NCBI RefSeq assembly: GCF_029255145.1
Contig: NZ_JAPUVQ010000050.1
Location: 15,681 to 79,680 of the forward strand
Origin: Accumulibacter sp.
GTDB lineage: Bacteria > Pseudomonadota > Gammaproteobacteria > Burkholderiales > Rhodocyclaceae
DNA: 64,000 nt
Reading direction: 5' to 3'
Below the pieces are notes generated by a model. It did not search any database. It saw only the letters and a list, made by a program, of their open reading frames with translations, and was not told the origin of the DNA. Of the stretch, positions 44,086 to 61,129 are shown in pieces (within the stretch, counting starts at the first letter, position 1; every line of letters begins with the position of its first letter). The translations under genes were made by a program, and so were the position numbers.

Positions 44086-44214
44086 TTCCGTTCTCCTCCC
44101 TGTGCATGATCGAACTGCAGACCTTCGTCAGCAATGTCCGGAGCGATGCGTCGAAGCGGACGACGATCACTCCACCACCGCGCACCCGCCGCCGCTGCCA
44201 TCGTGAGCCTGCAC

Positions 44215-46638: not shown

Positions 46639-46649
46639 TTTGCGCGTGC

Positions 46650-47054
46650 TCAGGCCAGCTGCCGCAGAACCAGCACCAGGCAGCCATTCTCCAGAAACTG
46701 CTGGTGCAGGCTGAAGTGGCCTGGCGGCAGGGTAATCCGACGCTCGAACCGCCCGTAGGGGATCTCGAGGCGGTGGATCGCCGCCCTGTGACAGGGCGAA
46801 GGCATTGGCCGCTCGCCACCGACCAGCACGCCTGTGGCGTCGAGTTCCACTTCAATCAGCCGCGAATCGACTCCCGGCAAGGCGACCAGCAGGGTCACTT
46901 CGTCTCCGTCCTGAAAGAGGTCGACAGCCGGTTGCCAGCACGGCGGTGAATGCGACGTTTCGATGGCAAAAATCCGCCGCTGCAGCCGCTCCGAACCCTG
47001 CAGAAGGTCCAGTGCCTCGGCCCACACCCAGATGTTTCGCTCACCCGATCTCAT
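46650..47054 (-). CDS. Hsp20/alpha-crystallin family small heat-shock protein
   Basis: 134 aa with an alpha-crystallin core (..PAVDLFQDGDEVTLLVALPGV..GRFERRITLP..). It ends 11 nt upstream of the lon start. Confidence 0.8.
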   Translation of the reverse strand: MRSGERNIWVWAEALDLLQGSERLQRRIFAIETSHSPPCWQPAVDLFQDGDEVTLLVALPGVDSRLIEVELDATGVLVGGERPMPSPCHRAAIHRLEIPYGRFERRITLPPGHFSLHQQFLENGCLVLVLRQLA

Positions 47055-47126: not shown

Positions 47127-47180
47127 TTTTCCAGGCCGGGCACGGCCTTCCGATTTTTCCAGGCCGGGGATGGCCTTCCG
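47127..47180. repeat. tandem 26-bp repeat (28-bp period), each copy hairpin-forming, upstream of hsp20
   Basis: TTTTCCAGGCCGGGCACGGCCTTCCG (47127-52) and TTTTCCAGGCCGGGGATGGCCTTCCG (47155-80). Each contains the inverted repeat AGGCCG..CGGCCT. Confidence 0.85.
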
Positions 47181-47460
47181 TTCTATCGCATGGCAGCGCC
47201 CGGGACGAGGCCCGCCACCGTGCGCAGGGCGGCGACGATCACGACGACGCCCGCCTGGCGGTCGGCGGCGAGACCATGCAAAATGCCCGAGACCCCGATG
47301 GGCAGCAAACGCAGGTCATCCAGCAGCGGAACGTCACCGCCAATCCCCCGCTGACGCCGCGCAAGCCCGCAAGGCGTCTGGTCAGGCGCCCGGCCCGCTG
47401 CCACTGTCAATCAGGAAACGGTGCTATCCTGCGCAACACCCCGCCATAAATCGAGATCCC

Positions 47461-47706
47461 ATGGTCCGTTCGCACCTCGTCGAACTGATGCGCCGCCAGC
47501 AGCTGAAAACGACCGAGCTGGCACGGCTGGCGCACGTCAATCGCAGCACGGTGGCCGCATTGACGCGCGATCGCGCGACCCGCGTCGATCTCACCGCGCT
47601 GGAGAGAATCTGCACGGTCCTCGGCTGCGGGCTCGGTGATCTGCTGGAAATCGTCCCGGACGCGCCTCGGCAAAACGACAACCCGCCGACTGCCGGAGCG
47701 AGCTGA
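47461..47706 (+). CDS. XRE/Cro-C1-type helix-turn-helix regulator (81 aa)
   Basis: ATG 47461 (MVRSHLVELMRRQQLKTTELARLAHVNRSTVAALTR..ICTVLGCGLGDLLE). Its stop codon directly abuts the pglW ATG. Confidence 0.75.
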   Translation: MVRSHLVELMRRQQLKTTELARLAHVNRSTVAALTRDRATRVDLTALERICTVLGCGLGDLLEIVPDAPRQNDNPPTAGAS

Positions 47707-50700
47707 ATGCCCATGAGTCTCAGCCGCTGGCAGGCCGTCTCACAGTCGCAGTTCGCCTGGGAGCGCGAGGCGCTGGACTGGCTGCGCAACCAGCTTCCCG
47801 ATCGCGAGCCCTGGCACGCCTGGACCAACTTCGAATTCATCGACGACGAGGGCAAGGTCAACGAGGTTGACGCGCTGATCCTGACGCCGGCGGGTCTCTT
47901 CCTGATCGAGATCAAGAGCCGGCCCGGCGTCGTCACCGGCGACACCCACACCTGGCTGTGGGTCACCGATGGTCGCGAACGCGCCTACGACAACCCGCTG
48001 ATCCTCGCCAACCGCAAGTCGAAGCGGCTGGCCAGCCTGCTGCGGCGGCAGCCGTCGGTATTCAGGGCGAAAGTGCGCTTGCCCTTCGTCGAGCCGCTGA
48101 TCTTCCTGTCGGCCACCAGCCTTGACTGCCGGCTCAGTGGCACGGCCCGGGCAGGCACTTACCTGCGCGGTCAGCCGAACAGCGAGTCCGATACCGGCAT
48201 CATCGGCGCGCTGCAGAACGGAACCGCCAGTGCCCGCGCGATCCAGCTCGGCCGCGTCGACCATCAACACGCCCGGGTGCTCGCCCGGGCCATCGCCGAG
48301 GCCGGCGTCAGGCCCTCGAACAAGCATCGCAAGGTGGCCGATTACCAGCTCGGCGCGCTGTTGGCGGAAGGCGGCTCGTACCAGGACTGGGAGGGCACGC
48401 ACACCGCGATGGCGGCTGTACGCCGGCGTATTCGCATCTACACCGTCGCCGCCGCCACCACGCCCGATGCGCGCAGGTCGCTGGTTCGCCAGGCGCAGCG
48501 AGAGTTCCAGATCCTCGAAGGCATCGACCACCCGGGCATCGTCAAGGTCAAGGACTACCAGGACACCGAACTCGGCCCGGCGCTCATCTTCGATCACGAC
48601 CCCAAGGCCATCCGGCTCGACTTCCTGCTGCGCGAAATGGGCCACCAGCGGGGCCAACCGCGGGACCAACAGCGGAGCCAACAGCTCAACGTTGACCAGA
48701 GCCTGCAGATCGTCCGTGACCTGGCAGAGACCCTGAAGTACGCCCATCAGAAGCGCCTGTACCACCGCGCCCTGTGCCCGCAGAGCATTCTGGTTCAGGA
48801 TGTCGCCGGCGCAACGCCACGGCCGCGCATCATGAACTGGCAGACCGGCGCACGCGAGGGCACGCAAGGCACCGACACCGCCGATCCCGCGCGCCGCACG
48901 GTCGGCGGCACGATGCACGTCGAGGAGTACGTCGAGGACCCCGGCCTGGTCTATCTGGCGCCCGAAACCTCGCAGTCCGACGCGCAGCACGGCCCAAGCC
49001 TGGATGTCTTCAGCCTGGGTGCGATCACCTATCACGTCTTCTCCGGACAGCCACCGGCAAGCTCGGTGCTCGATCTCGCCGAAAAGTTGCGCATCGGGCA
49101 GGGCCTGCGGCTGTCGGACGTGCTCGACGGCTGTGGCAGGCAGCTGCAGGACCTCATCCAGCACAGCACCTGTCCCGACGTGATGGGCCGCTATGGCACC
49201 ATCGACGAGTTCCTGCAGGACCTCGACAAGGTCGTCGATGAACTGACGACCCCGGAGCCCGAGGCCACCGTCGATCCGGCCGAAGCCAACCCCGACGAGC
49301 GCATCGAAGGGGGCTTCACGGTCATTCGCAAGATGGGCCGAGGCTCGTCGGCGGACGTGCTGCTGGTCCGCGAGGACGGCAGGAGCGACGAGATGATCCT
49401 CAAGGTCGCCCTCGACGCCAGCCTCAACGACCGCCTCACCGCCGAGGGCGAAGCACTCTCCAAACTACGCCATCCGAATATCGTCGAGTGGCAGCGCACG
49501 CTCACCGTCAATGGCCGGACCGCGCTGCTGATGCACAAGGCCGGCGAAAAGACCCTGGCCGACCGCATCCGCGACGGAGCCCGCCTGTCGCTCGACCTCC
49601 TGCAGCGCTTCGGCGAAGAGCTGATCCAGGCGGTCGACTACCTCGATCAGCAGGGCGTCGCCCACCGCGACATCAAGCCCGAAAACATTGGCATGTCGCA
49701 GGCCGGTACCCGGGGCAAGCTGCAACTGGTGCTGTTCGATTTCTCGCTCACCCGCACTCCGGCCGAGAACATCGCCGCCGGCACGCATCCCTATCTCGAC
49801 CCTTTCCTCTCTCTGCGCAAACCGGCGCGCTGGGATCTCCAGGCCGAGCGCTTTGCGCTCGCCGTCACCCTGCACGAAATGGTCACCGGCGTCGCGCCGC
49901 GCTGGGGCGATGGCAAGACGCAAGCGTCGATGCTCGATTGCGAAGCCACCCTCGCCAGCGAGCGCTTCGACCCCTTGCTGCGTGACGGTTTCACCGCCTT
50001 CTTCGCCAGAGCGCTGAACCGCAACCCGCGCAAGCGCTTCGACAATGCCGAAGAGATGCTGCGCGACTGGCGCCGGATCTTCGAGGCCGGCGCGTCGGCA
50101 AGCCAGTCGTCGCCAGACCCCTTCGAAGCCGTCGCCCGCCTGGCCACCGCCAGCACCAACATGGCCGAGCTGGGCTACAGCGTCGAAGCGCAGAACGTGC
50201 TCGAAGCGATGGCCATCCACAACGCGCTCGAGCTGCTGGCCGTCGATCGCGTGCGCTTTCGCTACCTGCGCGGCGTCGGCGACCGCATCCGCAAGGAAAT
50301 CCGCCTCAAGGCCAAAGCCCTGGCTGCCATCCGGCCGGACCTCGTGCAAGGCCGCCCGACGCTGCACGAGGTCGACGACGACGCGGCAGCGGCCGGCGCG
50401 ATCAGCGTCAACGAACTGGCCGCGCAGCTCCTGCCGCGCCGGCCGGCCGGTGACGACCGTGTCGAAGAGACCGCACTGGCGATCTACCTTGGCCTGGAAG
50501 AGGCCGAAGGCTCGACGCTCTGGACACCGCTGGGCGTCGCCGCCAGCGCACTTGCGATCGACCGCAACGACCTTTCCGCCGCCTTGCTGAAAGCCCGCGA
50601 GCGCTGGCTGAAAACGCCGCAGCTCACCGAACTGCGTAACCACTTCGAAAGCCTGCTCTCCACCCAGGGCGGGGTGATGACCGTCCCCGAGCTGGCGTTG

Positions 50701-51966
50701 GCGCTGCTCGCCATGCGCGGCTGCGCGTCGCAGGACGACGCCGAGCGCCTGCGCCTGGCGACCGCCGTGGTTCGTGCCTGTTGCGAAGCCGAAGCCCATC
50801 TGGAGCGTCTGCGCTTTCAGGAATTCGAACACCGCCCCCTGCCGCTGATCGCCGTTTCCGCCGAATTGGCCGAATACGCCCGCCGGCTCGGCGCGTCGGC
50901 GGACGCCTGCGCGCAGGCCGAACCCTTGCTGACGCCGCAGCGAGCGCTCGAAACACTGGAGTCGGTGCCCGCGCCGGAGGTCAGTCCGGCGCTCTCGGCG
51001 CAGCGCCTGTTGCGCCTGGCCACCGCCGCAGCGCAGCGCGCGGCGCTGTCCAGCCGCCAGGAGATCTATCCACGCGGCATGGCCGCTGCTCTGGCCCTGC
51101 GCCAGTCGCTCGGCGCGCTGATGGGGGTGCGCTTCCTGAAGCCGAAGGATGTGCAGGATCGCGTCGCCGGCCGCTACCCCGAAGCACAGCCGCTGCCGCG
51201 ACGCCCACTCCTCGACACCCTGCTGGCCGACGTCGGCGCGCTGCTGGTCTGGAGCGACGACACCCCGGCCGGCCCGGGCTACCTGCCCTCGACGCAAGCG
51301 CTCGGCCCGTCGGCGGGCACTACCACGCAATACTCCCGCGCCACCACGGCCATGGAGCGCGGCCTGCCGGGAGCGGATGCCGGCAGCGACGAGGCCTCCG
51401 CCGCCGCCATCGAGGCGCAGAAGCTGGAAGACCGCCTGGCGTACGCGCGCACGGCCGGCGGATTTCTCGTGCTCACCGTCGAGCCGCGGCTGGCGCACCA
51501 TGTCGAAGCCGAGTTGCTGCGCCGTTTCGGCCACCGGCGGGTGAGCTTCGAGGCGCTGATGCTCAAGGCGCTGCGCCAGCAGGCCGAAGCGTTGAAGGTC
51601 AACTGGAACGTCGTTCTGATGGCTGATGCCGCCGCTCCCACCAGCACCGACTGGAGCCGCCTGATGCGCCTGGTGCACAAGGCGCTGCCGCTGGTGAAGC
51701 AGGCGCTCCTCGAAGCCACCGCCCCGGTGCTGCTGGTCAACTCGGGTCTGATCGCCCGCTACGGCCTGATGCCGCTCATCGACGAGCTGCGTGACGAGAT
51801 CGGCCGGCCGGGCAGGCCCGCCAGCCTGTGGATGCTGCTGCCGATGGCGGCCACCGGACTGCCGACCATCGACGACGTCCCCGTGCCGATCATCACCTCA
51901 ACCCAGTGGGCGAATGTTCCCGTCGCCTGGGCCAGGAACCTGCACCGCGCAGCCTCCGCGGCCTGA
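47707..51966 (+). CDS. pglW: BREX type 2 serine/threonine kinase PglW (NERD + degenerate kinase + kinase + large C-terminal region)
   Basis: 1419 aa. N-terminal NERD-like region (..EVDALILTPAGLFLIEIKS..). A first kinase-like domain has HRA/NWQ in place of HRD/DFG. A second has ILKVA, HRDIKPEN and DFS. Confidence 0.85.
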   Translation: MPMSLSRWQAVSQSQFAWEREALDWLRNQLPDREPWHAWTNFEFIDDEGKVNEVDALILTPAGLFLIEIKSRPGVVTGDTHTWLWVTDGRERAYDNPLILANRKSKRLASLLRRQPSVFRAKVRLPFVEPLIFLSATSLDCRLSGTARAGTYLRGQPNSESDTGIIGALQNGTASARAIQLGRVDHQHARVLARAIAEAGVRPSNKHRKVADYQLGALLAEGGSYQDWEGTHTAMAAVRRRIRIYTVAAATTPDARRSLVRQAQREFQILEGIDHPGIVKVKDYQDTELGPALIFDHDPKAIRLDFLLREMGHQRGQPRDQQRSQQLNVDQSLQIVRDLAETLKYAHQKRLYHRALCPQSILVQDVAGATPRPRIMNWQTGAREGTQGTDTADPARRTVGGTMHVEEYVEDPGLVYLAPETSQSDAQHGPSLDVFSLGAITYHVFSGQPPASSVLDLAEKLRIGQGLRLSDVLDGCGRQLQDLIQHSTCPDVMGRYGTIDEFLQDLDKVVDELTTPEPEATVDPAEANPDERIEGGFTVIRKMGRGSSADVLLVREDGRSDEMILKVALDASLNDRLTAEGEALSKLRHPNIVEWQRTLTVNGRTALLMHKAGEKTLADRIRDGARLSLDLLQRFGEELIQAVDYLDQQGVAHRDIKPENIGMSQAGTRGKLQLVLFDFSLTRTPAENIAAGTHPYLDPFLSLRKPARWDLQAERFALAVTLHEMVTGVAPRWGDGKTQASMLDCEATLASERFDPLLRDGFTAFFARALNRNPRKRFDNAEEMLRDWRRIFEAGASASQSSPDPFEAVARLATASTNMAELGYSVEAQNVLEAMAIHNALELLAVDRVRFRYLRGVGDRIRKEIRLKAKALAAIRPDLVQGRPTLHEVDDDAAAAGAISVNELAAQLLPRRPAGDDRVEETALAIYLGLEEAEGSTLWTPLGVAASALAIDRNDLSAALLKARERWLKTPQLTELRNHFESLLSTQGGVMTVPELALALLAMRGCASQDDAERLRLATAVVRACCEAEAHLERLRFQEFEHRPLPLIAVSAELAEYARRLGASADACAQAEPLLTPQRALETLESVPAPEVSPALSAQRLLRLATAAAQRAALSSRQEIYPRGMAAALALRQSLGALMGVRFLKPKDVQDRVAGRYPEAQPLPRRPLLDTLLADVGALLVWSDDTPAGPGYLPSTQALGPSAGTTTQYSRATTAMERGLPGADAGSDEASAAAIEAQKLEDRLAYARTAGGFLVLTVEPRLAHHVEAELLRRFGHRRVSFEALMLKALRQQAEALKVNWNVVLMADAAAPTSTDWSRLMRLVHKALPLVKQALLEATAPVLLVNSGLIARYGLMPLIDELRDEIGRPGRPASLWMLLPMAATGLPTIDDVPVPIITSTQWANVPVAWARNLHRAASAA

Positions 51967-51999: not shown

Positions 52000-54447
52000 A
52001 TGATCGATGCCAAAGTCCTGCTCGCTGATCTGACCCGCCTGCTCAAGCGGCTGGAAGACGACCTGCGCGAACGCGTGCTCAGCCCGTCCAGCGAGGTACC
52101 GGAGCTGCGCACCCGGCTTCAGGCAGAGTGGCAGGCGGCGCGCGATGCCGGGCAAACGGCCGAGACCTTCGAATCCTGGGCCGAGCAGGTCATCACCCAG
52201 GCCGGCGTGCACTGGCTGTTGAGCGGCGTCTTCCTGCGCTTCATCGAAGACAACGGGCTGGTGGAACGGCCGTGGATCAGCGGCACGCCGCAATCAGGCC
52301 GGCTGGCCCTGGCACGCGACCGGCATGACGCGTACTTCCGTGAACATCCGCACCAGAACGATCGCGACTACCTGATGGGCTGCTTCCAGGAGGCCGGTGC
52401 CTTGCCGGGCCTGCACACCTTCTTCGACGGCGCCCACAACCCGGTCTTTCGCCTCGGCATCAGCGGCGATGCGGCGATGGCGGTGATGCAGTTCTGGCAG
52501 GAGGTCGCCGCCGATTCCGGGGCGCTGATTCGCGACTTCACCGACCCGACCTGGAACACGCGCTTCCTCGGCGATCTGTACCAGGACCTGAGCGAAGCCA
52601 CGCGCAAGCGCTATGCGCTGCTGCAGACGCCCGAGTTCGTCGAGGAGTTCATCCTCGACCGGACGCTGACCCCGGCGATCAACGAGTTTGGCTATCGCGA
52701 AGTGCGGACGATCGATCCCACCTGCGGATCGGGGCACTTCCTGCTCGGCGGCTTCCATCGCCTGATCGACGAGTGGTCGAGCAACGAGCCGGGGCGCAAC
52801 CGGCGCGACATCGCTCAGAAAGCGCTGGACGCGGTCGCTGGCGTTGACCTGAATCCGTTCGCGGTCGCCATCGCGCGTTTCCGCCTGTTGTTGGCGGCAT
52901 TGCGGGCCAGCGACGTGCGCCGAATGGCCGAGGCGCCGGATTTCAGGATTCATGTCGCCATTGGCGACAGCCTGCTGCACGGCAAGCGCTTTGGACTGAC
53001 TGCCACCGACGACATGTTCCAGGAAGCCGACCATTTTGCCGATACAGGCTTGGCGCATGCCTACGCCAGCGAAGACCTGGCTGAGGTGCAGGCGATTCTG
53101 GGTCGGCAGTACCACGCCGTGGTGGGCAACCCGCCCTATATCGTTGTCAAGGACGCTGCGCTCAATGCGGCCTATCGCAAGTACTACGCCAGTTGCCATC
53201 GGCAGTATTCGCTCGGCGCGCCGTTCACCGAGCGCTTCTTCGATCTGGCTGTCACTGGGCGCGATGCGCAGCCTGCCGGTTTCGTCGGGCTGATCACCGC
53301 CAACTCGTTCATGAAGCGCGAGTTCGGCAGCAAGCTGATCGAGCAGGTGCTGCCGCGACTGGATCTCACGCATGTGGTTGATACGTCTGGCGCCTACATA
53401 CCGGGCTACGGCACGCCCACTGTCATCCTTTTTGGCCGCCATCGGCCACCCATCGGCGATGGCGTGCGCACGGTGATGGGCATCAAGGGCGAGCCCAGCA
53501 CGCCGGAAACTCCGGCACATGGGATGGTGTGGTCGGCGATCGTGGGGCAGATCGACCGCACGGGTTCCGAGAGCGAGTTCGTTAGCGTGGCTGACACGGC
53601 GCGGGCGACGTTTGCAAAGCACCCGTGGAGCATCGGTGGCGGTGGGGCCGCTGAACTGCGCGAGCAACTCGAAGAGCCAGCAGGTGGAAGGCTTCGGGAC
53701 CTTGGCGCCGATCTCGGATTCGGAGTGGTCACGCGAGAAGACGACGCTTACCTGCTCGGCGAAGCAGCGCTGCTGCGCTTAGGAATCGACCCGACCCACA
53801 CGAAACCCGCCGTCGATGGCGAGTGCGTTCGCGATTGGTCTATTGACTCTCCGACTGTTGCGCTCTGGCCCTATGGCGCGCCTGGGCTCGATGCCACTGC
53901 CTCTTATGCAACCCAAAGCGCTCTCTGGGCCTACAAGACTGGGCTCTCGGGTCGCGTGGCATATGGGAAATCGCAGCTCGAGCGCGGCCTTGAGTGGTTC
54001 GAGTATTCGATGTTCTTCAAGAGCCGGTTTACTACACCGCTCACAATCACCTTCGCCGAAATCGCTACCCACAACCACTTCGTCCTCGATCGCGGCGGCA
54101 AGGTCTTCAAGCAGACGGCACCGGTGATCAAACTGCCCGCCGGGGCCGGCGAGGACGAGCACCTGGGCCTGCTCGGACTGCTCAACTCGTCGGTGGCGTG
54201 TTTCTGGCTGCAGCAGGTTTGTCACAACAAGGGCGGACCCGGTGGTGGATGCAGCAAGGATGAGAAGTGGCATGATTTCTACGCATTCAATTCAACCAAG
54301 GTCGCAGAGTTCCCACTAACCGACAAGCGCCCGCTGGACATCGCCCAAACGCTCGACCGACTCGCCCACGAACTGGCAGCCATCAGCCCGGCGGCCTTGC
54401 TCGATACCTCGCGCGTAGCCGAAGGAGACCACGATGCAAGTCCATAA
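52000..54447 (+). CDS. pglX: BREX type 2 adenine DNA methyltransferase PglX, N-terminal part (815 aa)
   Basis: Catalytic motif VVGNPPYIVVKD and SAM-binding region IDPTCGSGHFL. It ends ..LDRLAHELAAISPAALLDTS.. Confidence 0.85.
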   Translation: MIDAKVLLADLTRLLKRLEDDLRERVLSPSSEVPELRTRLQAEWQAARDAGQTAETFESWAEQVITQAGVHWLLSGVFLRFIEDNGLVERPWISGTPQSGRLALARDRHDAYFREHPHQNDRDYLMGCFQEAGALPGLHTFFDGAHNPVFRLGISGDAAMAVMQFWQEVAADSGALIRDFTDPTWNTRFLGDLYQDLSEATRKRYALLQTPEFVEEFILDRTLTPAINEFGYREVRTIDPTCGSGHFLLGGFHRLIDEWSSNEPGRNRRDIAQKALDAVAGVDLNPFAVAIARFRLLLAALRASDVRRMAEAPDFRIHVAIGDSLLHGKRFGLTATDDMFQEADHFADTGLAHAYASEDLAEVQAILGRQYHAVVGNPPYIVVKDAALNAAYRKYYASCHRQYSLGAPFTERFFDLAVTGRDAQPAGFVGLITANSFMKREFGSKLIEQVLPRLDLTHVVDTSGAYIPGYGTPTVILFGRHRPPIGDGVRTVMGIKGEPSTPETPAHGMVWSAIVGQIDRTGSESEFVSVADTARATFAKHPWSIGGGGAAELREQLEEPAGGRLRDLGADLGFGVVTREDDAYLLGEAALLRLGIDPTHTKPAVDGECVRDWSIDSPTVALWPYGAPGLDATASYATQSALWAYKTGLSGRVAYGKSQLERGLEWFEYSMFFKSRFTTPLTITFAEIATHNHFVLDRGGKVFKQTAPVIKLPAGAGEDEHLGLLGLLNSSVACFWLQQVCHNKGGPGGGCSKDEKWHDFYAFNSTKVAEFPLTDKRPLDIAQTLDRLAHELAAISPAALLDTSRVAEGDHDASP

Positions 54448-54781
54448 AACCACTGCCCGCATTCAAGCCTCTGGCGAACTCACCATCACACACCTGCCTT
54501 TTGCGCCGGGGACTCTGGTCGAAGTCTTGGTCGTGCGCAGCGAACGCAGCGCTGCCGAGCGCGAGCAGGAATGGGCGCGCTTGATGCAAGCGGTGCACGC
54601 GCTGCCGCACGCGCAGACGATCAGGGAAGAAGACATCGCCGTTGAAATCCACCGTCAGACGGCAATTCGTCAGGCGCTGACCGCTGTCGCGCAAGCGGGA
54701 ACTTTCGCCGCCGTCGATGATGCGTGTGCCTGGCAGCGCGAGTTGCGCGTCGACCGGGCGCAGCCGGGGCGCGAGGACTGA
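54434..54781 (+). CDS. 115-aa protein encoded inside the pglX split (AbrB/antitoxin-like N-terminus?)
   Basis: GAAGGAGA lies 5 nt before ATG 54434. It overlaps the PglX-N end by 14 nt and stops 4 nt before the PglX-C ATG. The N-terminus is ..ARIQASGELTITHLPFAPGTLVEVLVV... The first ~35 codons have more A/T-ending codons than their neighbours. Confidence 0.55.
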   Translation: MQVHKTTARIQASGELTITHLPFAPGTLVEVLVVRSERSAAEREQEWARLMQAVHALPHAQTIREEDIAVEIHRQTAIRQALTAVAQAGTFAAVDDACAWQRELRVDRAQPGRED

Positions 54782-54785
54782 AACC

Positions 54786-55982
54786 ATGACCCTCCCCACC
54801 CGCCAAAGCCTTGACGCTGCCCGCACCCAGTCCGCCCGCCTTCGCCGCCAGATGATCGCTGCCCAGGAAGAACTCGACTGGCGCTGCTACCGCCTCTACG
54901 GTCTGCTGCCCGCCGGCAGCAAGGAATCCGATTTTGAGCACTCTGCGCCACCCGAAGTGGCGCTCGGCGAGCGTCCCTTCGAGATCGTGATGGCTCGCCG
55001 TATCCTTGAAGGCGCTCTACAGACCAAGTGGTTTGAGTGGCTGGGCATAAAGCCCAAGACGGACATCCCTCCGCACTGGCCAGCGGACTATCAGGCATTG
55101 GTTCAGCGTCGGATTTCGCTGATCGAGACAGACCGCAGCATCGGTCTGATCGAAGCGCCCAGTTGCAAGCGCCGCTGGGAATCTACCCCGTGGGAGTCTC
55201 TTGAGCAGGCGGCGCTGCGCGACTGGCTGCTGGCCCGGATCGAGTCGCCGCGCTACTGGACGAGCAGCGCCGGGCAGCCGCCGCAGATGACCAGCACCAG
55301 CCGCCTCGCCGACGCGCTGCAGCGCGACTCCGACTTCATGCAGATTGCCGGGTTGTACGCGGGTCACGCCGACTTCCACACCGCCCAACTCGTTGCCGAA
55401 CTGGTGGCGTCGGAAGCGGTTCCCTTCCTGCCGGTGCTGCGCTACGCCGACACCGGCCTGCGCAAACGTGCCCAGTGGGAAGACACCTGGGCTTTGCAGC
55501 GGCGCGAGGATGTCGGCGAAGCAGTCGGCAAGATCCCGGTGCCGCCCAAGTACCAGAGCAAGGACTTCCTGAAGACCGATTACTGGCGCCTGCGCGGCGG
55601 CCTGGACGTGCCCAAGGAGCGCTGGATCAGCTACCCCGGCTGCGAACGCGGCGCCGACGGCAGCCTGGTCATCGCCTGGGCCGGCTGGGACCATCTGCAG
55701 CAGGCCACGGCCCTGGCCACCTACTTCATCGACATGAAGGAACGCGAAGGCTGGAGCCGCGAACGGCTACAACCCTTGCTCGCCGGCCTGCTCGAACTGC
55801 TGCCCTGGCTGAAGCAATGGCACAACGACATGAACCCCGATTTCGGCGCACGCATGGGCGACTACTACGAGAGTTTCGTGACCGACGAAGTGCGAGCACT
55901 GCAATTCACGCTCGATGACCTGCGTGCCTGGAAACCGGCGGTTACGGCGGCCAGGCGCGGGCGCAAGAGATCTGCAGCATGA
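54786..55982 (+). CDS. pglX: PglX C-terminal part (398 aa)
   Basis: ATG 54786 lies 8 nt after GAGGA. The string ..RRQMIAAQEELDWRCYRLYGLLP.. matches, as I recall it, the C-terminal region of BREX methyltransferases. Confidence 0.75.
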   Translation: MTLPTRQSLDAARTQSARLRRQMIAAQEELDWRCYRLYGLLPAGSKESDFEHSAPPEVALGERPFEIVMARRILEGALQTKWFEWLGIKPKTDIPPHWPADYQALVQRRISLIETDRSIGLIEAPSCKRRWESTPWESLEQAALRDWLLARIESPRYWTSSAGQPPQMTSTSRLADALQRDSDFMQIAGLYAGHADFHTAQLVAELVASEAVPFLPVLRYADTGLRKRAQWEDTWALQRREDVGEAVGKIPVPPKYQSKDFLKTDYWRLRGGLDVPKERWISYPGCERGADGSLVIAWAGWDHLQQATALATYFIDMKEREGWSRERLQPLLAGLLELLPWLKQWHNDMNPDFGARMGDYYESFVTDEVRALQFTLDDLRAWKPAVTAARRGRKRSAA

Positions 55983-56196: not shown

Positions 56197-57318
56197 ATGT
56201 TCGACCGCAACAGGCCCTTCAACGACCTGCCCCCCCTGCCGCCGGCGGCAGAGGTGGAGACCGCCGCCGTTCTCAAGAAGGCGATCACGGCCAGCCGTGC
56301 CCTGGCCGAGTTGAAGGGCATGGCCGAGCGCATGCCGAACCAGGCGATGTTGATCGACAGCCTGGTGCTGCAGGAAGCGCGCGCGTCGTCGGAGATCGAG
56401 AACATCCTGACGACGAACGACGAGCTGTTCAAGGCGGCGTCGGACGAAGCCCTGCCGGCCAGCGCCGAAGCCAGGGAGGTGCTGCGCTACCGGCAGGCGC
56501 TGAACTACGGCTTCCGGCAGATCAGGGAACGGCCGCTGGCCACGGGCCTGTTCATCGAAATCGCGCAGCTCATCAAGCAGACCGACGTCAGCGTGCGTCG
56601 TACGCCCGGCACACGCATCACCAACGGCCGGGGTGAGACGATCTACACGCCGCCCGAAGGCGAAGCGGTCATCCGCGACAAGCTGCGTCACCTTGAGAAC
56701 TTCATGCACGCCGAGGATGGGCCGGGAAGCGGGCCGGGAGGCGGGCCGGGAAGGGGGCCGGGAAGCGGGCTGGACGTGCTGGTGAAGATGGCGCTGGTGC
56801 ACTACCAGTTCGAGGCCATCCACCCCTTCCCCGATGGCAACGGGCGCAGCGGGCGAATCGTGAACATCCTGTACCTGGTGGACCGGGGGCTGCTCAACCT
56901 GCCGGTGCTCTACCTGTCGCGCCACATCATCGACCACAAGCCGGCCTACTACGAAGGCCTGCGGCGGGTCACCGAGGAAGGCGCCTGGGGCGACTGGGTG
57001 CTATACATGCTGGACGCGGTGGAGCAGACCTCGCTGCGCACGCGCCAGCAGATCACCGACATCATGGCGCTGATGGAAGCGGTGCGCGAACGCGTGCAAC
57101 GCGAGGCGCCCGGCGTCTACAGCAAGGACCTGATCGAGCAGATCTTCCGGCAGCCCTACTGCAAGATCCAGTTCCTCGAACGTGCCGGCATTGGCACGCG
57201 GCAGACCTGTGCCAAGTACCTGCGCGAACTGGAGCGCCTGGGCGTGCTGCACGGCGAGAAGATCGGCCGTGAGGTGTATTTCATCAACCAGGCGCTGTTC
57301 GCGCTGCTGACGCGATGA
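56197..57318 (+). CDS. fic: Fic family protein (AMPylase-type, auto-inhibited class-II-like, C-terminal winged helix)
   Basis: AAGGAGG RBS. Fic motif HPFPDGNGRSGR, N-terminal inhibitory-type motif SSEIEN = (S/T)xxxE(G/N), and a C-terminal ..TRQTCAKYLRELERLGVL.. HTH-like segment. Confidence 0.9.
   Translation: MFDRNRPFNDLPPLPPAAEVETAAVLKKAITASRALAELKGMAERMPNQAMLIDSLVLQEARASSEIENILTTNDELFKAASDEALPASAEAREVLRYRQALNYGFRQIRERPLATGLFIEIAQLIKQTDVSVRRTPGTRITNGRGETIYTPPEGEAVIRDKLRHLENFMHAEDGPGSGPGGGPGRGPGSGLDVLVKMALVHYQFEAIHPFPDGNGRSGRIVNILYLVDRGLLNLPVLYLSRHIIDHKPAYYEGLRRVTEEGAWGDWVLYMLDAVEQTSLRTRQQITDIMALMEAVRERVQREAPGVYSKDLIEQIFRQPYCKIQFLERAGIGTRQTCAKYLRELERLGVLHGEKIGREVYFINQALFALLTR
56719..56766 (+). 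repeat. in-frame 12-bp tandem repeat x4 inside fic
   Basis: GGGCCGGGAAGC / GGGCCGGGAGGC / GGGCCGGGAAGG / GGGCCGGGAAGC encodes GPGS-GPGG-GPGR-GPGS (aa 175-190). Confidence 0.9.
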
Positions 57319-57375: not shown

Positions 57376-57445
57376 GTTGTCGCCACATGTTCGTTTGGAC
57401 AACATGTCGGCCCCAAGGGGCGGGCCGCCGGAAAGGAAGCATTCG

Positions 57446-60400
57446 ATGCCGCTGCTGAAAGACCTGATCGCCATCCCGGAGCGCGTGCACCAGGGCGACT
57501 TCGTCCTCAATCTGGCCGACGGCGTGGCGCATGCCGAGGCGACGCTGAGCGACTACGTGGTGACGCCGCAGCTCAACGCCTCCTTCAACGATGCGCTGAA
57601 CTTCATCAAGCAGTCGGTCCAGGGCGGCACCAGCAAGGCCGCGTACCTGCACGGCAGTTTCGGCTCGGGCAAGAGCCACTTCATGGCGGTGCTCAACCTG
57701 CTGCTCGACAACAACGTGTCGGCGCGCTCGATGCCCGAGCTGGCCGACGTCGTCGCTCAGCACAACGGCTGGACGCAGGAGCGCAGGTTCCTGCTCGTCC
57801 CATATCACATGATCGGTGCGCGCAGCATGGAGTCGGCGATCCTCGGCGGCTACGCCGAGTTCGTGCGCAAGCGCCATCCGGAGGCGCCGATCCCGGGCTT
57901 CTACCTGTCGGAGCGCCTTTTTGAAGACGCGGTGCGCATGCGCGATCGCCTCGGCGACGAGGCTTTCTTCCGGGATCTGAACGCGGGGTCCGATGCCGAC
58001 GACAACGGCGGCGGCGCTGACAGCGGCTGGGGTGAGCTGAGCGGCGGCTGGGATGCGACGAGCTTCGAAGCCGCGATGCTCGAGCCGCCGAGCGGGGACG
58101 ACCGCGTGCGCCTGGTCGGCGACCTGATCAGCCGCTACTTCACGGCCATCGCCGATGTCGCCGAGAGCCGCGGCGAGGCCTTCGTGCCGCTCGACGACGG
58201 CCTGAGCATCATCAGCCGCCACGCTCACGCGCTCGGCTACGACGCGGTGATCCTGTTCCTCGACGAGCTGATCCTGTGGCTGGCCAGCCGGGCGGCCGAT
58301 GTCAGCTTCGTCAGCAGCGAGGGCACCAAGCTCGTCAAGCTGGTCGAGGCCGGCAACGCTGACCGGCCGATTCCGCTGGTCAGCTTCGTCGCCCGGCAAC
58401 GCGACCTGCGCGAACTGGTCGGCGAAAACCTCGCCGGCTCGCTGCAATTGCAGTTCAGCGACGTGCTGCGCCACTGGGAAGCGCGCTTCCACCGCATCAC
58501 GCTCGAAGACCGCAACCTGCCGGCGATCGCCGAGAAGCGCGTGCTCCGGCCGTTGTCCGAAGCGGCCCGGCAGACTCTTGGCAACGCCTTCGATGAATTC
58601 CAGAAGGTCAGGCCCGAGGTCTGGAACACGCTGCTGACCGAGACCGCGGACAAGGAGATGTTCCGCAAGGTCTATCCGTTCAGCCCGGCACTGGTGCAGA
58701 CCCTGATTGCCGTATCGGCGGCCTTGCAGCGCGAGCGCACGGCCTTGAAGCTGATGCTGCAACTGCTGGTCGATCGGCGCGACGACCTGGAACTGGGCCA
58801 GATCATCCCGGTCGGCGACCTCTTCGACGTGATCGCCGATGGCGACGAACCGTTTTCGGAAGCGATGCGCATCCACTTCGACAACGCCAAGCGGCTGTAT
58901 CGGCGGAAGCTGCTGCCGCATCTGGAACGCCAGCACGGCGTGACCTGGGAAAACATCCGCATCGGCGACGCCGACCCGGCCAGGGCGCGAGCGCTGCGCA
59001 ACGATGCGCGGCTGATCAAGACGCTGCTGCTGAGCGCGCTGGTGCCGGAAGTCGATTCCTTGAAGGCCCTGACGGCGCAACGCCTGGCCGCGCTGAACCA
59101 CGGCACGATCCGCTCGCCGATCCCCGGCCGCGAAACCCAGGACGTGCTGCGCAAGTGCAAGGAGTGGGCGGCCGACATCGGCGAGATCAAGGTCACCGAC
59201 GATACCAACTCGCTGATCTCGATCCAGGTCACCGGCGTCGACATCGAGCCCATCGTGCGCGGGCCGGCTGCCTCCAGCGACAACCCGGGCAACCGCCGGC
59301 GGCGCGTGAAAGAGATGCTGTTCGAGCAACTCGGCGTGACCGACACCAACGACCTCTTCGCCACCTACACGGTGCTGTGGCGCGGGACCCGGCGCGAGGT
59401 CGAGGTGCTGTTCGAGAACGTCCGCGAGATGTCGGACGAGAAGCTGCGCGGGCGCGCGGGCACCTGGAGCGTGGTCATCGACTTCCCGTTCGACGACCCG
59501 CAGTTCACCCCGGCCGACGATCTGGTCCGTTTGGCCGACTATCGCGGCGACGATACGCAGACCCTGGTGTGGCTGCCGTCGTTCTTCAGCGCCAGGGCGC
59601 AGCATGATCTGGGCCGGCTGGTGGTGCTGGACTACATCCTCACCGGGGAGCGCTTCAACGAGCTGGCCGCCCACCTGGCGCTGGTCGATCGCGGGCCGGC
59701 GCAGGCGCTGCTGCGCAACCAGCGCGACCAGTTGCAGCAGCGGGTTCGGCAATACCTGGAGGTGGCCTACGGCATCGCCGGCGACTCGCGCGACGCGGTG
59801 GTGAACCCGATGGCGCCCGAAGACCAGTTCCGCTCGCTGGACCGGACGCTGACGCCGCTGCCGCCGGTCGGGGCGAACCTGAAATCGGCGTTCGAGGCGC
59901 TGCTCGACCAGCTCTTCAGGCACCAATACCCGGCGCATCCGGTCTTCGATGCCGAGGTGAGGCCAGCGGTGGTGAAAAAAGTGTGGCCGGAACTGGAGCG
60001 GGCGATCGGCAGCGCCGACGGACGCGCGCCGGTCGGCGATCGCGTGCTGCGGCAACTGATCCGCTCGATCGCCGACCCGGTGCATTTGGGCAAGACGGGC
60101 GAGAGCCATTTTGTGCTGCTTGACCATTGGCGCTCGCACTTTCTCCGCGAGCAGGCCAAAGCGGGCGCCGCGATCACCGTCGCCGATCTGCGCAAGTGGA
60201 TCGACCAGCCGCTGGCGATGGGGCTGCCGGCCGAGGTGCAGAACCTGATCATCCTGGCCTTCGCCGGGCATACGAATCGCCGTTTCGTGCGCGGCCATGT
60301 CCCCTACCTGGCGAGCATCGACCAGATGCCGGACGAACTGGAGCTGCGCGAGCAGATCCTGCCCGAACCCGGCGACTGGGAGGCCGCCTGCAAGCGTGCC

Positions 60401-61129
60401 GCCGCGCTGTTCGGTCTGACGATCCCGACATCGCGCCATGCGGGTAACGTCGCCAGGCTGGTCGAGGAAGTTCAGGCCAGGGCGCGTGAGGCCCGCGAGC
60501 CGATCAGCAGCCTGGTCAGGACGCTGAACGAGAAGTCGGCCTTGTTCCCGGCGGCGAGCGACAACCGTCGCCTGCAGACGGCACGTTCGGCGCTGGCCTT
60601 GCTCGCCGGGCTGCTGAGTGCCGAAAGCGCGGCGGTGGTCACGACCCTTGCCGGGGCAACGATAGAAACCTCCGAGGTCGCCATGCGCCAGACCCTGGCC
60701 AGGGCACGTGAACTGGATGAAGCGGTTCGCACCGCAGCGTGGGACATCTTCGAGGCGATGAAGGCGCTGAACGACGAGCGGCAAACCGCCGCGCGGGCGA
60801 TCGTCGCCAGGGTGTGCGAGACACTGGCCGCCGACGAGCATGCGATCGGCTTGAAGGCGGCGCTCGACGACCAGCGCGGCAGGGCCGTGCGCTTGCTGAC
60901 CGTGGCACCGCCGCCAGCGCCTCCCGGTCCGGTGTCGCCGCCGCTGCCGCCGGAAAAACCTGCGCCGGCACCCAGGCCACGGGTAATCGTGCAGGAATCC
61001 GCCGCGGCTGACCTTGACCGCACGCAGGCGCTGGCGCTGCTCGACGATCTGCACGCCAAACTCGACAAGGACACGGACCTGCGGCTGTCGATCTCGTGGC
61101 GGCTCGAAAGGCCGGGGAGCAGCAAGTGA
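57446..61129 (+). CDS. pglY: BREX type 2 P-loop ATPase PglY
   Basis: ATG 57446 follows GGAAAGGAAG. Walker A GSFGSGKSHF. 1227 aa. Positioned directly upstream of pglZ. Confidence 0.85.
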   Translation: MPLLKDLIAIPERVHQGDFVLNLADGVAHAEATLSDYVVTPQLNASFNDALNFIKQSVQGGTSKAAYLHGSFGSGKSHFMAVLNLLLDNNVSARSMPELADVVAQHNGWTQERRFLLVPYHMIGARSMESAILGGYAEFVRKRHPEAPIPGFYLSERLFEDAVRMRDRLGDEAFFRDLNAGSDADDNGGGADSGWGELSGGWDATSFEAAMLEPPSGDDRVRLVGDLISRYFTAIADVAESRGEAFVPLDDGLSIISRHAHALGYDAVILFLDELILWLASRAADVSFVSSEGTKLVKLVEAGNADRPIPLVSFVARQRDLRELVGENLAGSLQLQFSDVLRHWEARFHRITLEDRNLPAIAEKRVLRPLSEAARQTLGNAFDEFQKVRPEVWNTLLTETADKEMFRKVYPFSPALVQTLIAVSAALQRERTALKLMLQLLVDRRDDLELGQIIPVGDLFDVIADGDEPFSEAMRIHFDNAKRLYRRKLLPHLERQHGVTWENIRIGDADPARARALRNDARLIKTLLLSALVPEVDSLKALTAQRLAALNHGTIRSPIPGRETQDVLRKCKEWAADIGEIKVTDDTNSLISIQVTGVDIEPIVRGPAASSDNPGNRRRRVKEMLFEQLGVTDTNDLFATYTVLWRGTRREVEVLFENVREMSDEKLRGRAGTWSVVIDFPFDDPQFTPADDLVRLADYRGDDTQTLVWLPSFFSARAQHDLGRLVVLDYILTGERFNELAAHLALVDRGPAQALLRNQRDQLQQRVRQYLEVAYGIAGDSRDAVVNPMAPEDQFRSLDRTLTPLPPVGANLKSAFEALLDQLFRHQYPAHPVFDAEVRPAVVKKVWPELERAIGSADGRAPVGDRVLRQLIRSIADPVHLGKTGESHFVLLDHWRSHFLREQAKAGAAITVADLRKWIDQPLAMGLPAEVQNLIILAFAGHTNRRFVRGHVPYLASIDQMPDELELREQILPEPGDWEAACKRAAALFGLTIPTSRHAGNVARLVEEVQARAREAREPISSLVRTLNEKSALFPAASDNRRLQTARSALALLAGLLSAESAAVVTTLAGATIETSEVAMRQTLARARELDEAVRTAAWDIFEAMKALNDERQTAARAIVARVCETLAADEHAIGLKAALDDQRGRAVRLLTVAPPPAPPGPVSPPLPPEKPAPAPRPRVIVQESAAADLDRTQALALLDDLHAKLDKDTDLRLSISWRLERPGSSK

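What the first reader, a model, noticed from the sequence alone, without database searches (positions are those of the whole stretch)
54380..54800. pglX is split into two ORFs by a ~340-nt segment that carries its own well-initiated 115-aa gene
PglX-N (815 aa, containing the NPPY catalytic core) stops at 54447. A 115-aa ORF starts at 54434, 5 nt after a strong GAAGGAGA, and stops at 54781. PglX-C (398 aa, with the EELDWRCYRLYGL region) starts at 54786 after GAGGA.

The three ORFs are in three different frames, so this is not a single indel. The sum 815 + 398 = 1213 aa is close to the roughly 1200 aa I remember for single-chain PglX. That suggests an insertion into a linker rather than decay.

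The inserted gene begins with noticeably more A/T-ending codons than its surroundings, which hints at foreign origin. Its N-terminus (ARIQASGELTITHLPFAPGTLVEVLVV) looks like an AbrB/SpoVT-type swapped-hairpin antitoxin or DNA-binding module, which is inference only.

A methyltransferase expressed as two polypeptides, with a small adaptor or regulator coded at the junction, would be an unusual BREX architecture.
Basis: partly seen in the sequence, partly recalled or inferred. Interest (0 to 1): 0.7.

Follow-up and report, generated by a model that had tools for sequence, protein, structure and literature searches.

The report
Toxin-antitoxin relic splits BREX methyltransferase
In this Accumulibacter phage-defence (BREX type 2) locus, the methyltransferase gene pglX was cut in two at a flexible loop by inserted toxin-antitoxin cassettes; the 115-aa gene at the junction is a leftover hybrid antitoxin whose toxins are gone, and the same loop has been hit independently in several other bacterial lineages.

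Summary
pglX is encoded as PglX-N (52000-54447), a 115-aa ORF (54434-54781) and PglX-C (54786-55982), in three frames. The two halves abut at position ~799 of the 1185-position BREX-2 PglX model, with nothing missing.

The 115-aa ORF is not a dedicated adaptor. It is a chimeric orphan antitoxin. Residues 1-73 belong to a ~79-aa antitoxin family that sits upstream of PIN_3 toxins. Residues 74-115 are the C-terminus of a ~94-aa VapB-type antitoxin that pairs with a 124-aa PIN toxin. A related locus (L013) still has ORF79, a 5-codon toxin stub, vapB and vapC between the two PglX halves. In the window both toxins are gone.

Both PglX halves are intact and under purifying selection (dN/dS ~0.15-0.35). 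ORF115 is only weakly constrained.

Among 80 species-level genomes, 71 have single-chain PglX. Seven are split at this same loop, with four cargo types (two PIN TA types, DUF433/DUF5615, a nucleotidyltransferase) or their remnants, in at least 5 clades.

This is not an assembly artefact, not the common state, and not described in the literature searched. I rate it a new variant of known kinds, of moderate interest.

The parts
47707..51966 (+). pglW (NERD nuclease + Ser/Thr kinase), first core gene of the BREX-2 locus
   Evidence: Pfam NERD and Pkinase. PADLOC PglW, 1590 bits.
52000..54447 (+). PglX-N: 815-aa N-terminal chain of the split BREX-2 methyltransferase. It carries the SAM motif DPTCGSGHF and the catalytic NPPY. 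The last ~10-14 residues (..DTSRVAEGDHDASP*) lie beyond the PglX model.
   Evidence: NF033451 positions 2-799, 1147.7 bits. Eco57I and MmeI_Mtase domains. Tail compared with unsplit relatives. dN/dS 0.23-0.28.
54421..54428 (+). Shine-Dalgarno GAAGGAGA for ORF115, lying inside the end of PglX-N. The same motif precedes ORF79-family antitoxins in L090 and L081.
   Evidence: Sequence. Comparison of upstream regions.
54434..54652 (+). ORF115 residues 1-73: derived from a ~79-aa antitoxin family ('ORF79') that normally sits upstream of PIN_3 toxins.
   Evidence: 80% identical to L013 ORF79. phmmer finds ~40 stand-alone 78-83-aa relatives that cover exactly residues 1-74. These relatives overlap PIN_3/PIN toxin genes by ATGA.
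54653..54781 (+). ORF115 residues 74-115 plus stop: derived from the C-terminal (presumed toxin-binding) part of a ~94-aa VapB-type antitoxin.
   Evidence: 79% identical to L013 VapB residues 52-94. Shared with 93-aa antitoxins that precede 124-aa PIN toxins in L010-L012.
54779..54788 (+). Deletion scar TGAAACCATG: antitoxin stop, vapC-type spacer and start context, joined directly to codon 2 of PglX-C. The whole vapC toxin gene is missing.
   Evidence: Alignment with L013, L005, L009, L001 and L065.
54786..55982 (+). PglX-C: 398-aa C-terminal chain, a complete DUF7008 domain, with GAGGA 8 nt upstream of its ATG.
   Evidence: PF22654 positions 1-367 of 368, E=3e-158. NF033451 positions 799-1183. 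dN/dS 0.15-0.35.
56197..57318 (+). SoFic-type Fic adenylyltransferase, cargo in the variable pglX-pglY slot
   Evidence: Pfam Fic_N, Fic and SoFic-like_C. PADLOC SoFic, 370 bits. NF046030 scores 448.8 bits, below its 550-bit cutoff.
57377..61129 (+). pglY/brxC ATPase. The likely true start is the ATG near 57446 (MPLLKDL...).
   Evidence: PADLOC BrxC-PglY, 1577 bits, aligned from residue 24. Relatives start MTLIRELI.
61096..63873 (+). pglZ phosphatase
   Evidence: NF033446 BREX_PglZ_2, 828.6 bits. PADLOC PglZ.

Best explanation
pglX of an Accumulibacter BREX-2 locus was interrupted by type II toxin-antitoxin cassettes with PIN-domain toxins. The interruption lies in the short surface loop that joins the methyltransferase-containing part to the C-terminal DUF7008 domain (..SPAALL | LPTRxSLDAAR..).

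The most complete surviving state is L013. It reads PglX-N, then ORF79 antitoxin, then a 5-codon stub of its PIN_3 toxin, then vapB, then vapC, then PglX-C. The first and last junctions use overlapping stop and start codons.

In the lineage leading to the window, a ~260-bp deletion fused ORF79 codons 1-73 in frame to vapB codons 52-94. This made ORF115. The junction shows CGAC microhomology. vapC was then gutted by an internal deletion and finally removed completely, between two CCATG repeats. As a result, the PglX-C start now sits 4 nt after the ORF115 stop.

Shown: homology, anatomy, phylogenetic recurrence, and purifying selection on both PglX halves.

Inferred:
- The operon is transcribed as one unit. 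No promoter or terminator was found in the insert.
- The three ORFs are translated by coupling: a 14-nt overlap with a strong SD, then a 4-nt gap with an SD.
- PglX works as two non-covalently associated chains.
- ORF115 itself is a weakly constrained relic. Its main present value may be to carry ribosomes to the PglX-C start, and possibly to neutralise related VapC toxins encoded elsewhere.
For: - Clean split at model position ~799.
- ORF115 is a two-part chimera.
- L013-L016 keep ORF79, VapB (94 aa) and a PIN toxin (124 aa) between the PglX halves.
- A MKVVI stub of the PIN_3 toxin follows ORF79.
- ORF79-family genes pair with PIN_3/TIGR00305 toxins.
- vapC remnants of different extent lie downstream of ORF115 in L009, L005 and L001; none remains in the window.
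- Unsplit relatives run straight through the loop. Two of them carry in-frame junk expansions of the loop of 135-252 nt (about 45-85 aa), so the loop tolerates disruption.
- An AlphaFold2 model of an unsplit relative shows a ~7-residue coil between two helices at this point.
- dN/dS is 0.15-0.35 for both halves, at dS 0.26-0.92.
- pglW, pglY and pglZ are intact in the window.
- The same architecture appears on many independent assemblies.
Against: - There is no expression, methylation or protein-interaction data.
- Two ORF115-type loci show further damage: PglX-N is frameshifted in L009 and PglX-C is multiply frameshifted in L006. This could mean decay, or long-read indel errors.
- pglX alleles are recombination mosaics. 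Part of the purifying-selection signal could therefore have been acquired in unsplit backgrounds.
- The order of the two deletions is inferred by parsimony only, as is whether ORF115 once worked as a hybrid antitoxin for vapC.
Confidence: 0.75

Rival explanations
1. The insertion killed pglX. The two halves and ORF115 are a slowly decaying pseudogene inside a BREX-2 locus that no longer methylates or defends.
For: ORF115 is weakly constrained (pN/pS 0.33-1.05; window comparisons not significant). L009 and L006 carry extra frameshifts in PglX halves. One contig has a broken ORF115 (P0017/P0018).
Against: The 815- and 398-codon ORFs remain open in at least 5 diverged lineages, with dN/dS 0.15-0.35 at dS up to 0.9. 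Seven species-level genomes keep both halves open around different cargo. All other BREX-2 genes in the window are intact. Start codons and SD sequences are preserved at every junction, even after the vapC deletions.
Confidence: 0.18
2. ORF115 is a selected adaptor or regulator that assembles or controls the two PglX chains.
For: ORF115 is kept open with only in-frame indels in 11 clusters. It is tightly coupled to both halves. Its nucleotide identity between lineages (89-92%) is higher than that of the flanks.
Against: Its two parts are recognisably pieces of two antitoxins whose normal partners are PIN toxins. Other split loci have quite different cargo, or only scraps, at the same place (L028, L061, L065, L069, L086, L094), so no particular junction protein is needed. 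In L001 ORF115 ends 320 nt before PglX-C. dN/dS is relaxed.
Confidence: 0.06
3. ORF115 is retained as a working orphan antitoxin (anti-addiction or immunity) against VapC toxins of the same family encoded elsewhere in the genome or arriving on mobile DNA. This is compatible with the best explanation for the origin.
For: The VapB-type C-terminal 42 residues are strongly conserved between ORF115 and bona fide VapBs (68-85% identity). The same vapBC family is common in and around BREX-2 loci of relatives (L012, L061, L085, L009). Some lineage pairs show pN/pS 0.33-0.4 with p<0.05.
Against: No vapC homologue lies in the 64-kb window (repeated). The rest of the genome is unseen. Window-lineage comparisons are near neutral for the C-part (pN/pS 0.95-1.05).
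Confidence: 0.25
4. Assembly or sequencing artefact, or a self-splicing element (intron or intein) that restores one chain.
For: None found.
Against: The same three-ORF structure appears in 30+ independent contigs from four sources. The Rfam scan of 54000-55200 found only a sub-threshold CRISPR-DR9 hit, E=0.3. The insert is not in frame with either half, so it cannot be an intein. The insert content is TA-derived coding sequence.
Confidence: 0.01

Closest known systems
BREX type 2 / Pgl methyltransferase PglX (NCBIfam NF033451; S. coelicolor Pgl system)
   Same: The two halves together match the full model end to end. NPPY and SAM motifs are present. The locus has pglW, pglY and pglZ.
   Different: It is encoded as two polypeptides separated by a TA-derived gene. 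71 of 79 evaluable relatives are single-chain.
VapBC-type type II toxin-antitoxin modules with PIN toxins (Pfam PIN PF01850, PIN_3 PF13470, TIGR00305)
   Same: Each part of ORF115 is homologous to an antitoxin that sits immediately upstream of a PIN toxin, with overlapping or closely spaced stop and start codons.
   Different: There is no toxin gene next to it. It is a chimera of two antitoxin families. It matches no curated antitoxin model. Only the relatives give weak, sub-threshold RelN-antitoxin hits.
Toxic or abortive-infection genes embedded in methylation-based defence operons. Examples are PrrC inside EcoprrI hsd genes and BrxU or PARIS in BREX-1 loci (own knowledge), and the 'backup effectors' (PIN, HEPN, OLD) catalogued in BREX loci by PMC12839542.
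   Same: PIN-toxin modules are physically embedded in a BREX operon. The same cassettes also occupy the pglW-pglX and pglX-pglY gaps in relatives.
   Different: Here the cassette sits inside the coding sequence of the methyltransferase and splits it. PMC12839542 has no occurrence of 'split' and does not describe this.
Naturally two-chain DNA methyltransferases and RM enzymes (M.AquI alpha/beta, M.EcoHK31I, BcgI A/B versus single-chain AloI). This comparison rests on my own knowledge and was not tested here.
   Same: A methyltransferase that exists as one chain in most organisms is encoded as two chains in some.
   Different: The cause here is traceable to TA cassette insertion. The C-terminal chain is DUF7008, of unknown role, with no PDB fold match.
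Orphan antitoxins and anti-addiction modules (for example chromosomal ccd of Dickeya; own knowledge)
   Same: The antitoxin is retained after the toxin is lost.
   Different: It is chimeric, and there is no evidence of activity.

Membership tests
BREX-2 PglX | Scores above the curated cutoff of NF033451 (400 bits) | tested here: met
   PglX-N scores 1147.7 bits and PglX-C 567.2 bits.
BREX-2 PglX | N6-adenine MTase motifs (SAM-binding motif and NPPY) | tested here: met
   DPTCGSGHF and VVGNPPYIV are present in the PglX-N translation. Eco57I and MmeI_Mtase domains match.
BREX-2 PglX | Operon context with pglW, pglY/brxC and pglZ | tested here: met
BREX-2 PglX | Single polypeptide of ~1185-1240 aa | tested here: not met
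   Three ORFs in three frames. 71 of 79 relatives are single-chain.
BREX-2 PglX | Methylates a BREX motif and is required for defence | not testable with these tools
   Needs methylome or genetic data.
Type II antitoxin (VapB-like) | Homology to proteins encoded directly upstream of a PIN toxin | tested here: met
   N-part. C-part.
Type II antitoxin (VapB-like) | Adjacent cognate toxin gene | tested here: not met
   The next gene is PglX-C. vapC is fully deleted. There is no vapC or PIN_3 homologue in the window.
Type II antitoxin (VapB-like) | Match to a curated antitoxin model (Pfam or NCBIfam) | tested here: not met
   ORF115 has no hit. Relatives give only sub-threshold RelN-antitoxin hits of 14-18 bits against a 70-bit cutoff.
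   The AlphaFold2 model has pLDDT 49.7 with the N-terminal 38 residues below 50. The PDB profile search found nothing below E=0.16.
Type II antitoxin (VapB-like) | Neutralises toxin; autoregulates operon | not testable with these tools
   Needs co-expression assays.
Self-splicing intron / intein | Rfam intron match, or in-frame Hint domain | tested here: not met
   Rfam E-value scan. The frames differ.

The most novel reading that the evidence does not exclude
PIN-toxin TA cassettes may be functionally wired into BREX-2 rather than parked in it. Placing a translationally coupled toxin-antitoxin pair between two obligatory halves of PglX would tie toxin release to interference with BREX expression. 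It could also be placed before pglX or before pglY, as in relatives. Phage-induced shut-off or anti-BREX factors would then trigger abortive infection as a backup. Recurrent capture at the same PglX loop by at least four cargo types in at least 5 clades would then reflect selection, not just tolerance. A natural split site would also show that PglX can work as two chains.
Probability: 0.2. Interest if true: 0.8.

Novelty: new variant of a known kind. Interest (0 to 1): 0.55.

Why it matters
BREX is widespread, but its mechanism is only partly understood, and type 2 least of all.

- A naturally occurring, recurrent and apparently tolerated split of PglX marks a true domain boundary. This is a permissive site for protein engineering: co-expression of halves, and tagging or swapping of the DUF7008 module.
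- The repeated presence of PIN-toxin TA cassettes inside and around pglX suggests a testable link between TA modules and BREX-2. The link could be locus stabilisation, or a backup abortive response.
- The series L013, then L009/L005/L001, then the window is also a clear example of stepwise TA decay. It shows antitoxin domain shuffling, toxin loss, and an orphan chimeric antitoxin kept as a coupling spacer.

For the window alone the finding is modest: a relic. The comparative pattern is what is new.

Tried and rejected
- **Rfam scan of 54000-55200.** No intron, riboswitch or other RNA family. The only hit was a sub-threshold CRISPR-DR9 match (19 bits against a 45-bit cutoff), dismissed as chance.
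- **Family searches on ORF115.** Pfam, NCBIfam and PADLOC gave no hits. Pfam scanned across 37 ORF79-family members gave only scattered noise.
- **PDB profile search with the ORF79-family alignment.** Nothing below E=0.16.
- **AlphaFold2 of ORF115.** pLDDT 49.7, so no fold search was run on it.
- **AlphaFold2 of an unsplit C-terminal half, P0070, plus Foldseek against PDB.** No match with E<0.001. The DUF7008 fold remains unassigned. The model was used only to show that the split point is a short coil between helices.
- **Promoter and terminator scan of 53900-55100.** No promoter-like site. One minus-strand terminator-like hit, at the chance level.
- **Independent vapC losses.** I first read the vapC remnants as four independent toxin losses. 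Closer alignment shows that L001, L005 and L009 probably share one ancestral internal deletion (common junction GGYAAGCTCYTC), followed by lineage-specific erosion. I therefore withdrew the claim of many independent losses.
- **Apparent absence of full-length PglX.** The best 120 PglX-C protein hits were all 325-669 aa, which suggested that splits might be universal. The genome survey showed this was an effect of short contigs and hit ranking. Most genomes are single-chain.
- **Literature searches.** Terms were PglX/BREX/split/toxin-antitoxin, Accumulibacter+BREX, DUF7008, and BREX-2+vapC. No description of this architecture was found.


Full report
**1. The observation**

The ORF table and raw sequence confirm every coordinate.
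- PglX-N runs 52000-54447 (815 aa).
- A 115-aa ORF starts at 54434, 5 nt after GAAGGAGA, overlaps the end of PglX-N by 14 nt, and stops at 54781.
- PglX-C (398 aa) starts at 54786, 8 nt after GAGGA.
- The three ORFs are in three different frames.

The curated BREX-2 PglX model NF033451 (1185 positions) aligns PglX-N to positions 2-799 and PglX-C to positions 799-1183. Both score above the 400-bit cutoff. PglX-C is a complete DUF7008 domain. PADLOC agrees.

The surrounding locus is a BREX-2 system. It holds pglW (47707-51966), split pglX, a SoFic-type Fic gene (56197-57318), pglY (about 57446-61129) and pglZ (61096-63873). An identical PglX-C protein is on record from an Accumulibacter sp. genome (P0024).

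**2. What the 115-aa ORF is**

It matches no Pfam, NCBIfam or PADLOC family. A word-indexed search found 23 relatives, all from Accumulibacter-like sources. Their alignment shows three classes:
- 108-118-aa proteins like ORF115.
- 79-aa proteins that share only its first ~73 residues.
- 93-aa proteins that share only its last ~42 residues.

The gene contexts settle what these classes are.
- The 93-aa proteins sit immediately upstream of 124-aa PIN-domain proteins. This is the classic vapBC layout (L010, L011, L012).
- In L013-L016 the 79-aa ORF overlaps the end of PglX-N exactly as ORF115 does. It is followed by a 94-aa VapB, a 124-aa PIN VapC, and then PglX-C. The PglX-C GTG start overlaps the vapC stop.
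- An exhaustive phmmer search of 1.8 billion representatives shows that ORF115 residues 1-74 correspond to the full length of a family of 78-83-aa stand-alone proteins, at 28-45% identity.
- Two such proteins were looked up, and both overlap a PIN_3/PIN toxin gene by ATGA (L097, L098).
- An intact ORF79-PIN_3 pair also sits in the BREX-2 locus of Ca. A. adjunctus (L090). Its toxin matches TIGR00305 above cutoff.
- In L013 the ORF79 stop is followed by ATGAAAGTCGTCATC, which encodes MKVVI. This is the conserved start of those PIN_3 toxins (MRVVIDTN, MKVVVDTN). The reading frame then breaks.

ORF115 is therefore a chimera of two antitoxins:
- Antitoxin 1 (ORF79 family) contributes residues 1-73, at 54434-54652.
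- Antitoxin 2 (VapB) contributes its residues 52-94, at 54653-54778.

The fusion corresponds to a ~260-bp deletion relative to L013. CGAC is present at both breakpoints. The reading of microhomology is by inspection.

**3. The missing toxins**

The sequence TGAAACCATGACC in the window equals the vapB stop plus the vapC start context, joined directly to PglX-C codon 2. All of vapC is gone. CCATG occurs at both the vapC start and the PglX-C start in relatives, which suggests deletion between short repeats.

Sister loci keep intermediate stages:
- L009 has a 23-codon mini-ORF, MLLAHGKLLIPRRIVGPLARIAP. It combines roughly vapC codons 1-9 with the last ~16 codons.
- L005 has a more eroded version.
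- L001 (Ca. A. aalborgensis) keeps the last ~20 codons behind a ~280-bp REP-like palindromic element.

L001, L005 and L009 appear to share one deletion junction. I therefore infer one ancestral internal deletion followed by separate erosion, not many independent losses.

No vapC or PIN_3 homologue lies elsewhere in the window.

**4. Where the split lies in PglX**

Unsplit relatives read ..SPAALL, then 3-10 variable residues, then LPTRxSLDAAR... Split genes end ..AALLDTSRVAEGDHDASP* and restart MTLPTR...

In an AlphaFold2 model of an unsplit relative (P0070, mean pLDDT 72), this point is a ~7-residue coil between a short helix and the long first helix of DUF7008.

Two unsplit genomes (L021, L025) carry in-frame expansions of exactly this loop, made of REP-like and tandem-repeat sequence. 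These add 135-252 nt, or about 45-85 residues. The loop therefore tolerates gross disruption.

**5. How common it is**

A scan of one genome per species returned 80 loci with PglX-C relatives at 51-81% identity.
- 71 have one continuous ORF through the junction.
- 7 are split there.
- 1 is masked by Ns, and 1 lacks upstream sequence.

The cargo in the split loci differs:

| Locus | Organism | Cargo at the loop |
|---|---|---|
| L017 (same contig as L001) | Ca. A. aalborgensis | ORF115 plus a REP-like element |
| L028 | Accumulibacter SCELSE-10 | a second antitoxin/PIN pair |
| L061 | Ca. A. phosphatis SBR_S | remnant of that second pair, with the antitoxin C-terminus fused to PglX-N |
| L065 | Thiodictyon | vapBC of the L013 family |
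| L069 | Thiodictyon | decayed remnant |
| L094 | Chromatiaceae | DUF433 + DUF5615 (PIN-like) |
| L086 | Lamprocystis | a nucleotidyltransferase-domain ORF |

On a neighbour-joining tree of PglX-C, the split loci fall into at least five separate clades, each next to unsplit relatives. This tree is a rough distance tree on recombining genes.

The same cassette families also occupy other positions in BREX-2 loci:
- the pglW-pglX gap (L085, L012);
- just after pglX (L061, L022);
- just before pglY (L090, where the PIN_3 stop overlaps the pglY start; a remnant in L009).

The split is thus a minority state, but a recurrent one.

**6. Selection**

| Gene | dN/dS (Nei-Gojobori) | dS |
|---|---|---|
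| PglX-N | 0.23-0.28 | 0.59-0.92 |
| PglX-C | 0.15-0.35 | 0.26-0.67 |
| ORF115 | 0.32-0.75 | 0.13-0.26 |

By parts, ORF115 has pN/pS 0.33-1.05. Comparisons that involve the window are not significantly below 1.

ORF115 is more similar at the DNA level (89-92%) than its flanks. A sliding comparison shows a high-identity block at about 54300-54930, covering the insert plus ~130-150 bp on each side. This block is bordered by hypervariable mosaic blocks.

I read this as recombination among pglX alleles around a conserved junction, which could also move cassettes between alleles. This is inference.

**7. Mechanism proposed**

- Shown: the origin and anatomy described above.
- Inferred: the insert has no promoter-like or terminator-like site on the sense strand, so the operon is read through. 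ORF115 is translated from its strong SD. Ribosomes that terminate at 54781 reinitiate at 54786. PglX then acts as two associated chains.
- ORF115 is best seen as a relic kept open mainly because it delivers ribosomes to PglX-C. It may also serve as an orphan antitoxin.
- The alternative, that pglX is simply dead, cannot be excluded without methylation or expression data. It gains some support from the extra frameshifts in L009 and L006.

**8. Comparison with what is known**

- The locus is a BREX-2 member by every sequence criterion except the single-chain architecture.
- ORF115 works like, and descends from, VapB-type antitoxins. It fails the adjacency and curated-model tests for membership.
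- The 2026 comparative survey of BREX (PMC12839542) reports PIN, HEPN and OLD nucleases embedded in BREX loci as putative backup effectors. It contains no mention of a split PglX or of DUF7008.
- Other literature searches found nothing.

**9. Verdict**

- The junction gene is a chimeric antitoxin fossil, not a designed adaptor.
- The split itself is conserved and apparently tolerated. It is one instance of a recurrent capture of TA cassettes at one loop of PglX.
- I rate it a new variant of known kinds, with interest 0.55.

Noticed in passing
window 56197-57318; L005 7663-12348; L001 7873-11197; L081 8222-10461; L090 8218-9885: The gap between pglX and pglY is a variable cargo slot. The window has SoFic. 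Relatives have an AAA_15/AAA_21 ATPase plus a 182-aa protein, a CbiA/ParA-like ATPase plus a 488-498-aa protein, vapBC, or ORF79-PIN_3.
   Followed up: partly
window ~53600-54000, 54200-54300, 54930-55100: pglX has hypervariable mosaic blocks. The window is ~45% identical to L001, L005 and L009 but 91-94% identical to L013 in 53670-54100. The partners switch further on. This looks like recombinational shuffling of specificity-determining segments.
   Followed up: partly
L021 ~6750-7000; L025 ~6865-7000; L001 6348-6630: REP-like palindromic elements have landed in the same PglX loop. Their translations read VIPAKAGIH..LRGND in one frame and SFPRRRES..AFAGMT in another. In L021 they come with a tandem GNDGVEH repeat and stay in frame, giving a 1333-aa PglX.
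   Followed up: partly
L028 3193-3426 vs L013 2040-2324: Antitoxin domain shuffling. VapB of L028 shares its first 40 residues (80% identity) with VapB of L013. It has a different C-terminus and a different PIN toxin.
   Followed up: partly
L061 4209-6749: In Ca. A. phosphatis SBR_S, PglX-N runs on in frame into the C-terminal part of an antitoxin (..QLAGKVRELGDVMCSASPAEWGIEE*), giving an 846-aa fusion. It is followed by a truncated PIN.
   Followed up: no
L090 9469-9885 / 9882: The stop codon of the PIN_3 toxin overlaps the pglY start. This is the same coupling style as vapC/PglX-C in L013.
   Followed up: no
window 44134-46758 and 47170-47706: An 874-aa ORF just upstream of the locus has no Pfam, NCBIfam or PADLOC match. 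A Cro/C1-type HTH protein ends exactly where pglW starts and may be a regulator of the locus.
   Followed up: no
P0070 model (unsplit PglX C-terminal half); window 54786-55982: DUF7008 is predicted to be largely helical, with pLDDT above 90 over much of the domain. It has no Foldseek match in the PDB at E<0.001. Residues 438-503 of P0070 form a low-confidence, length-variable insert.
   Followed up: partly
L009 5208-5259; L006 6411-7530; L063 6059-6161: Extra frame breaks occur inside PglX halves in some metagenome or MAG contigs. It is unclear whether these are real decay or long-read indel errors.
   Followed up: no
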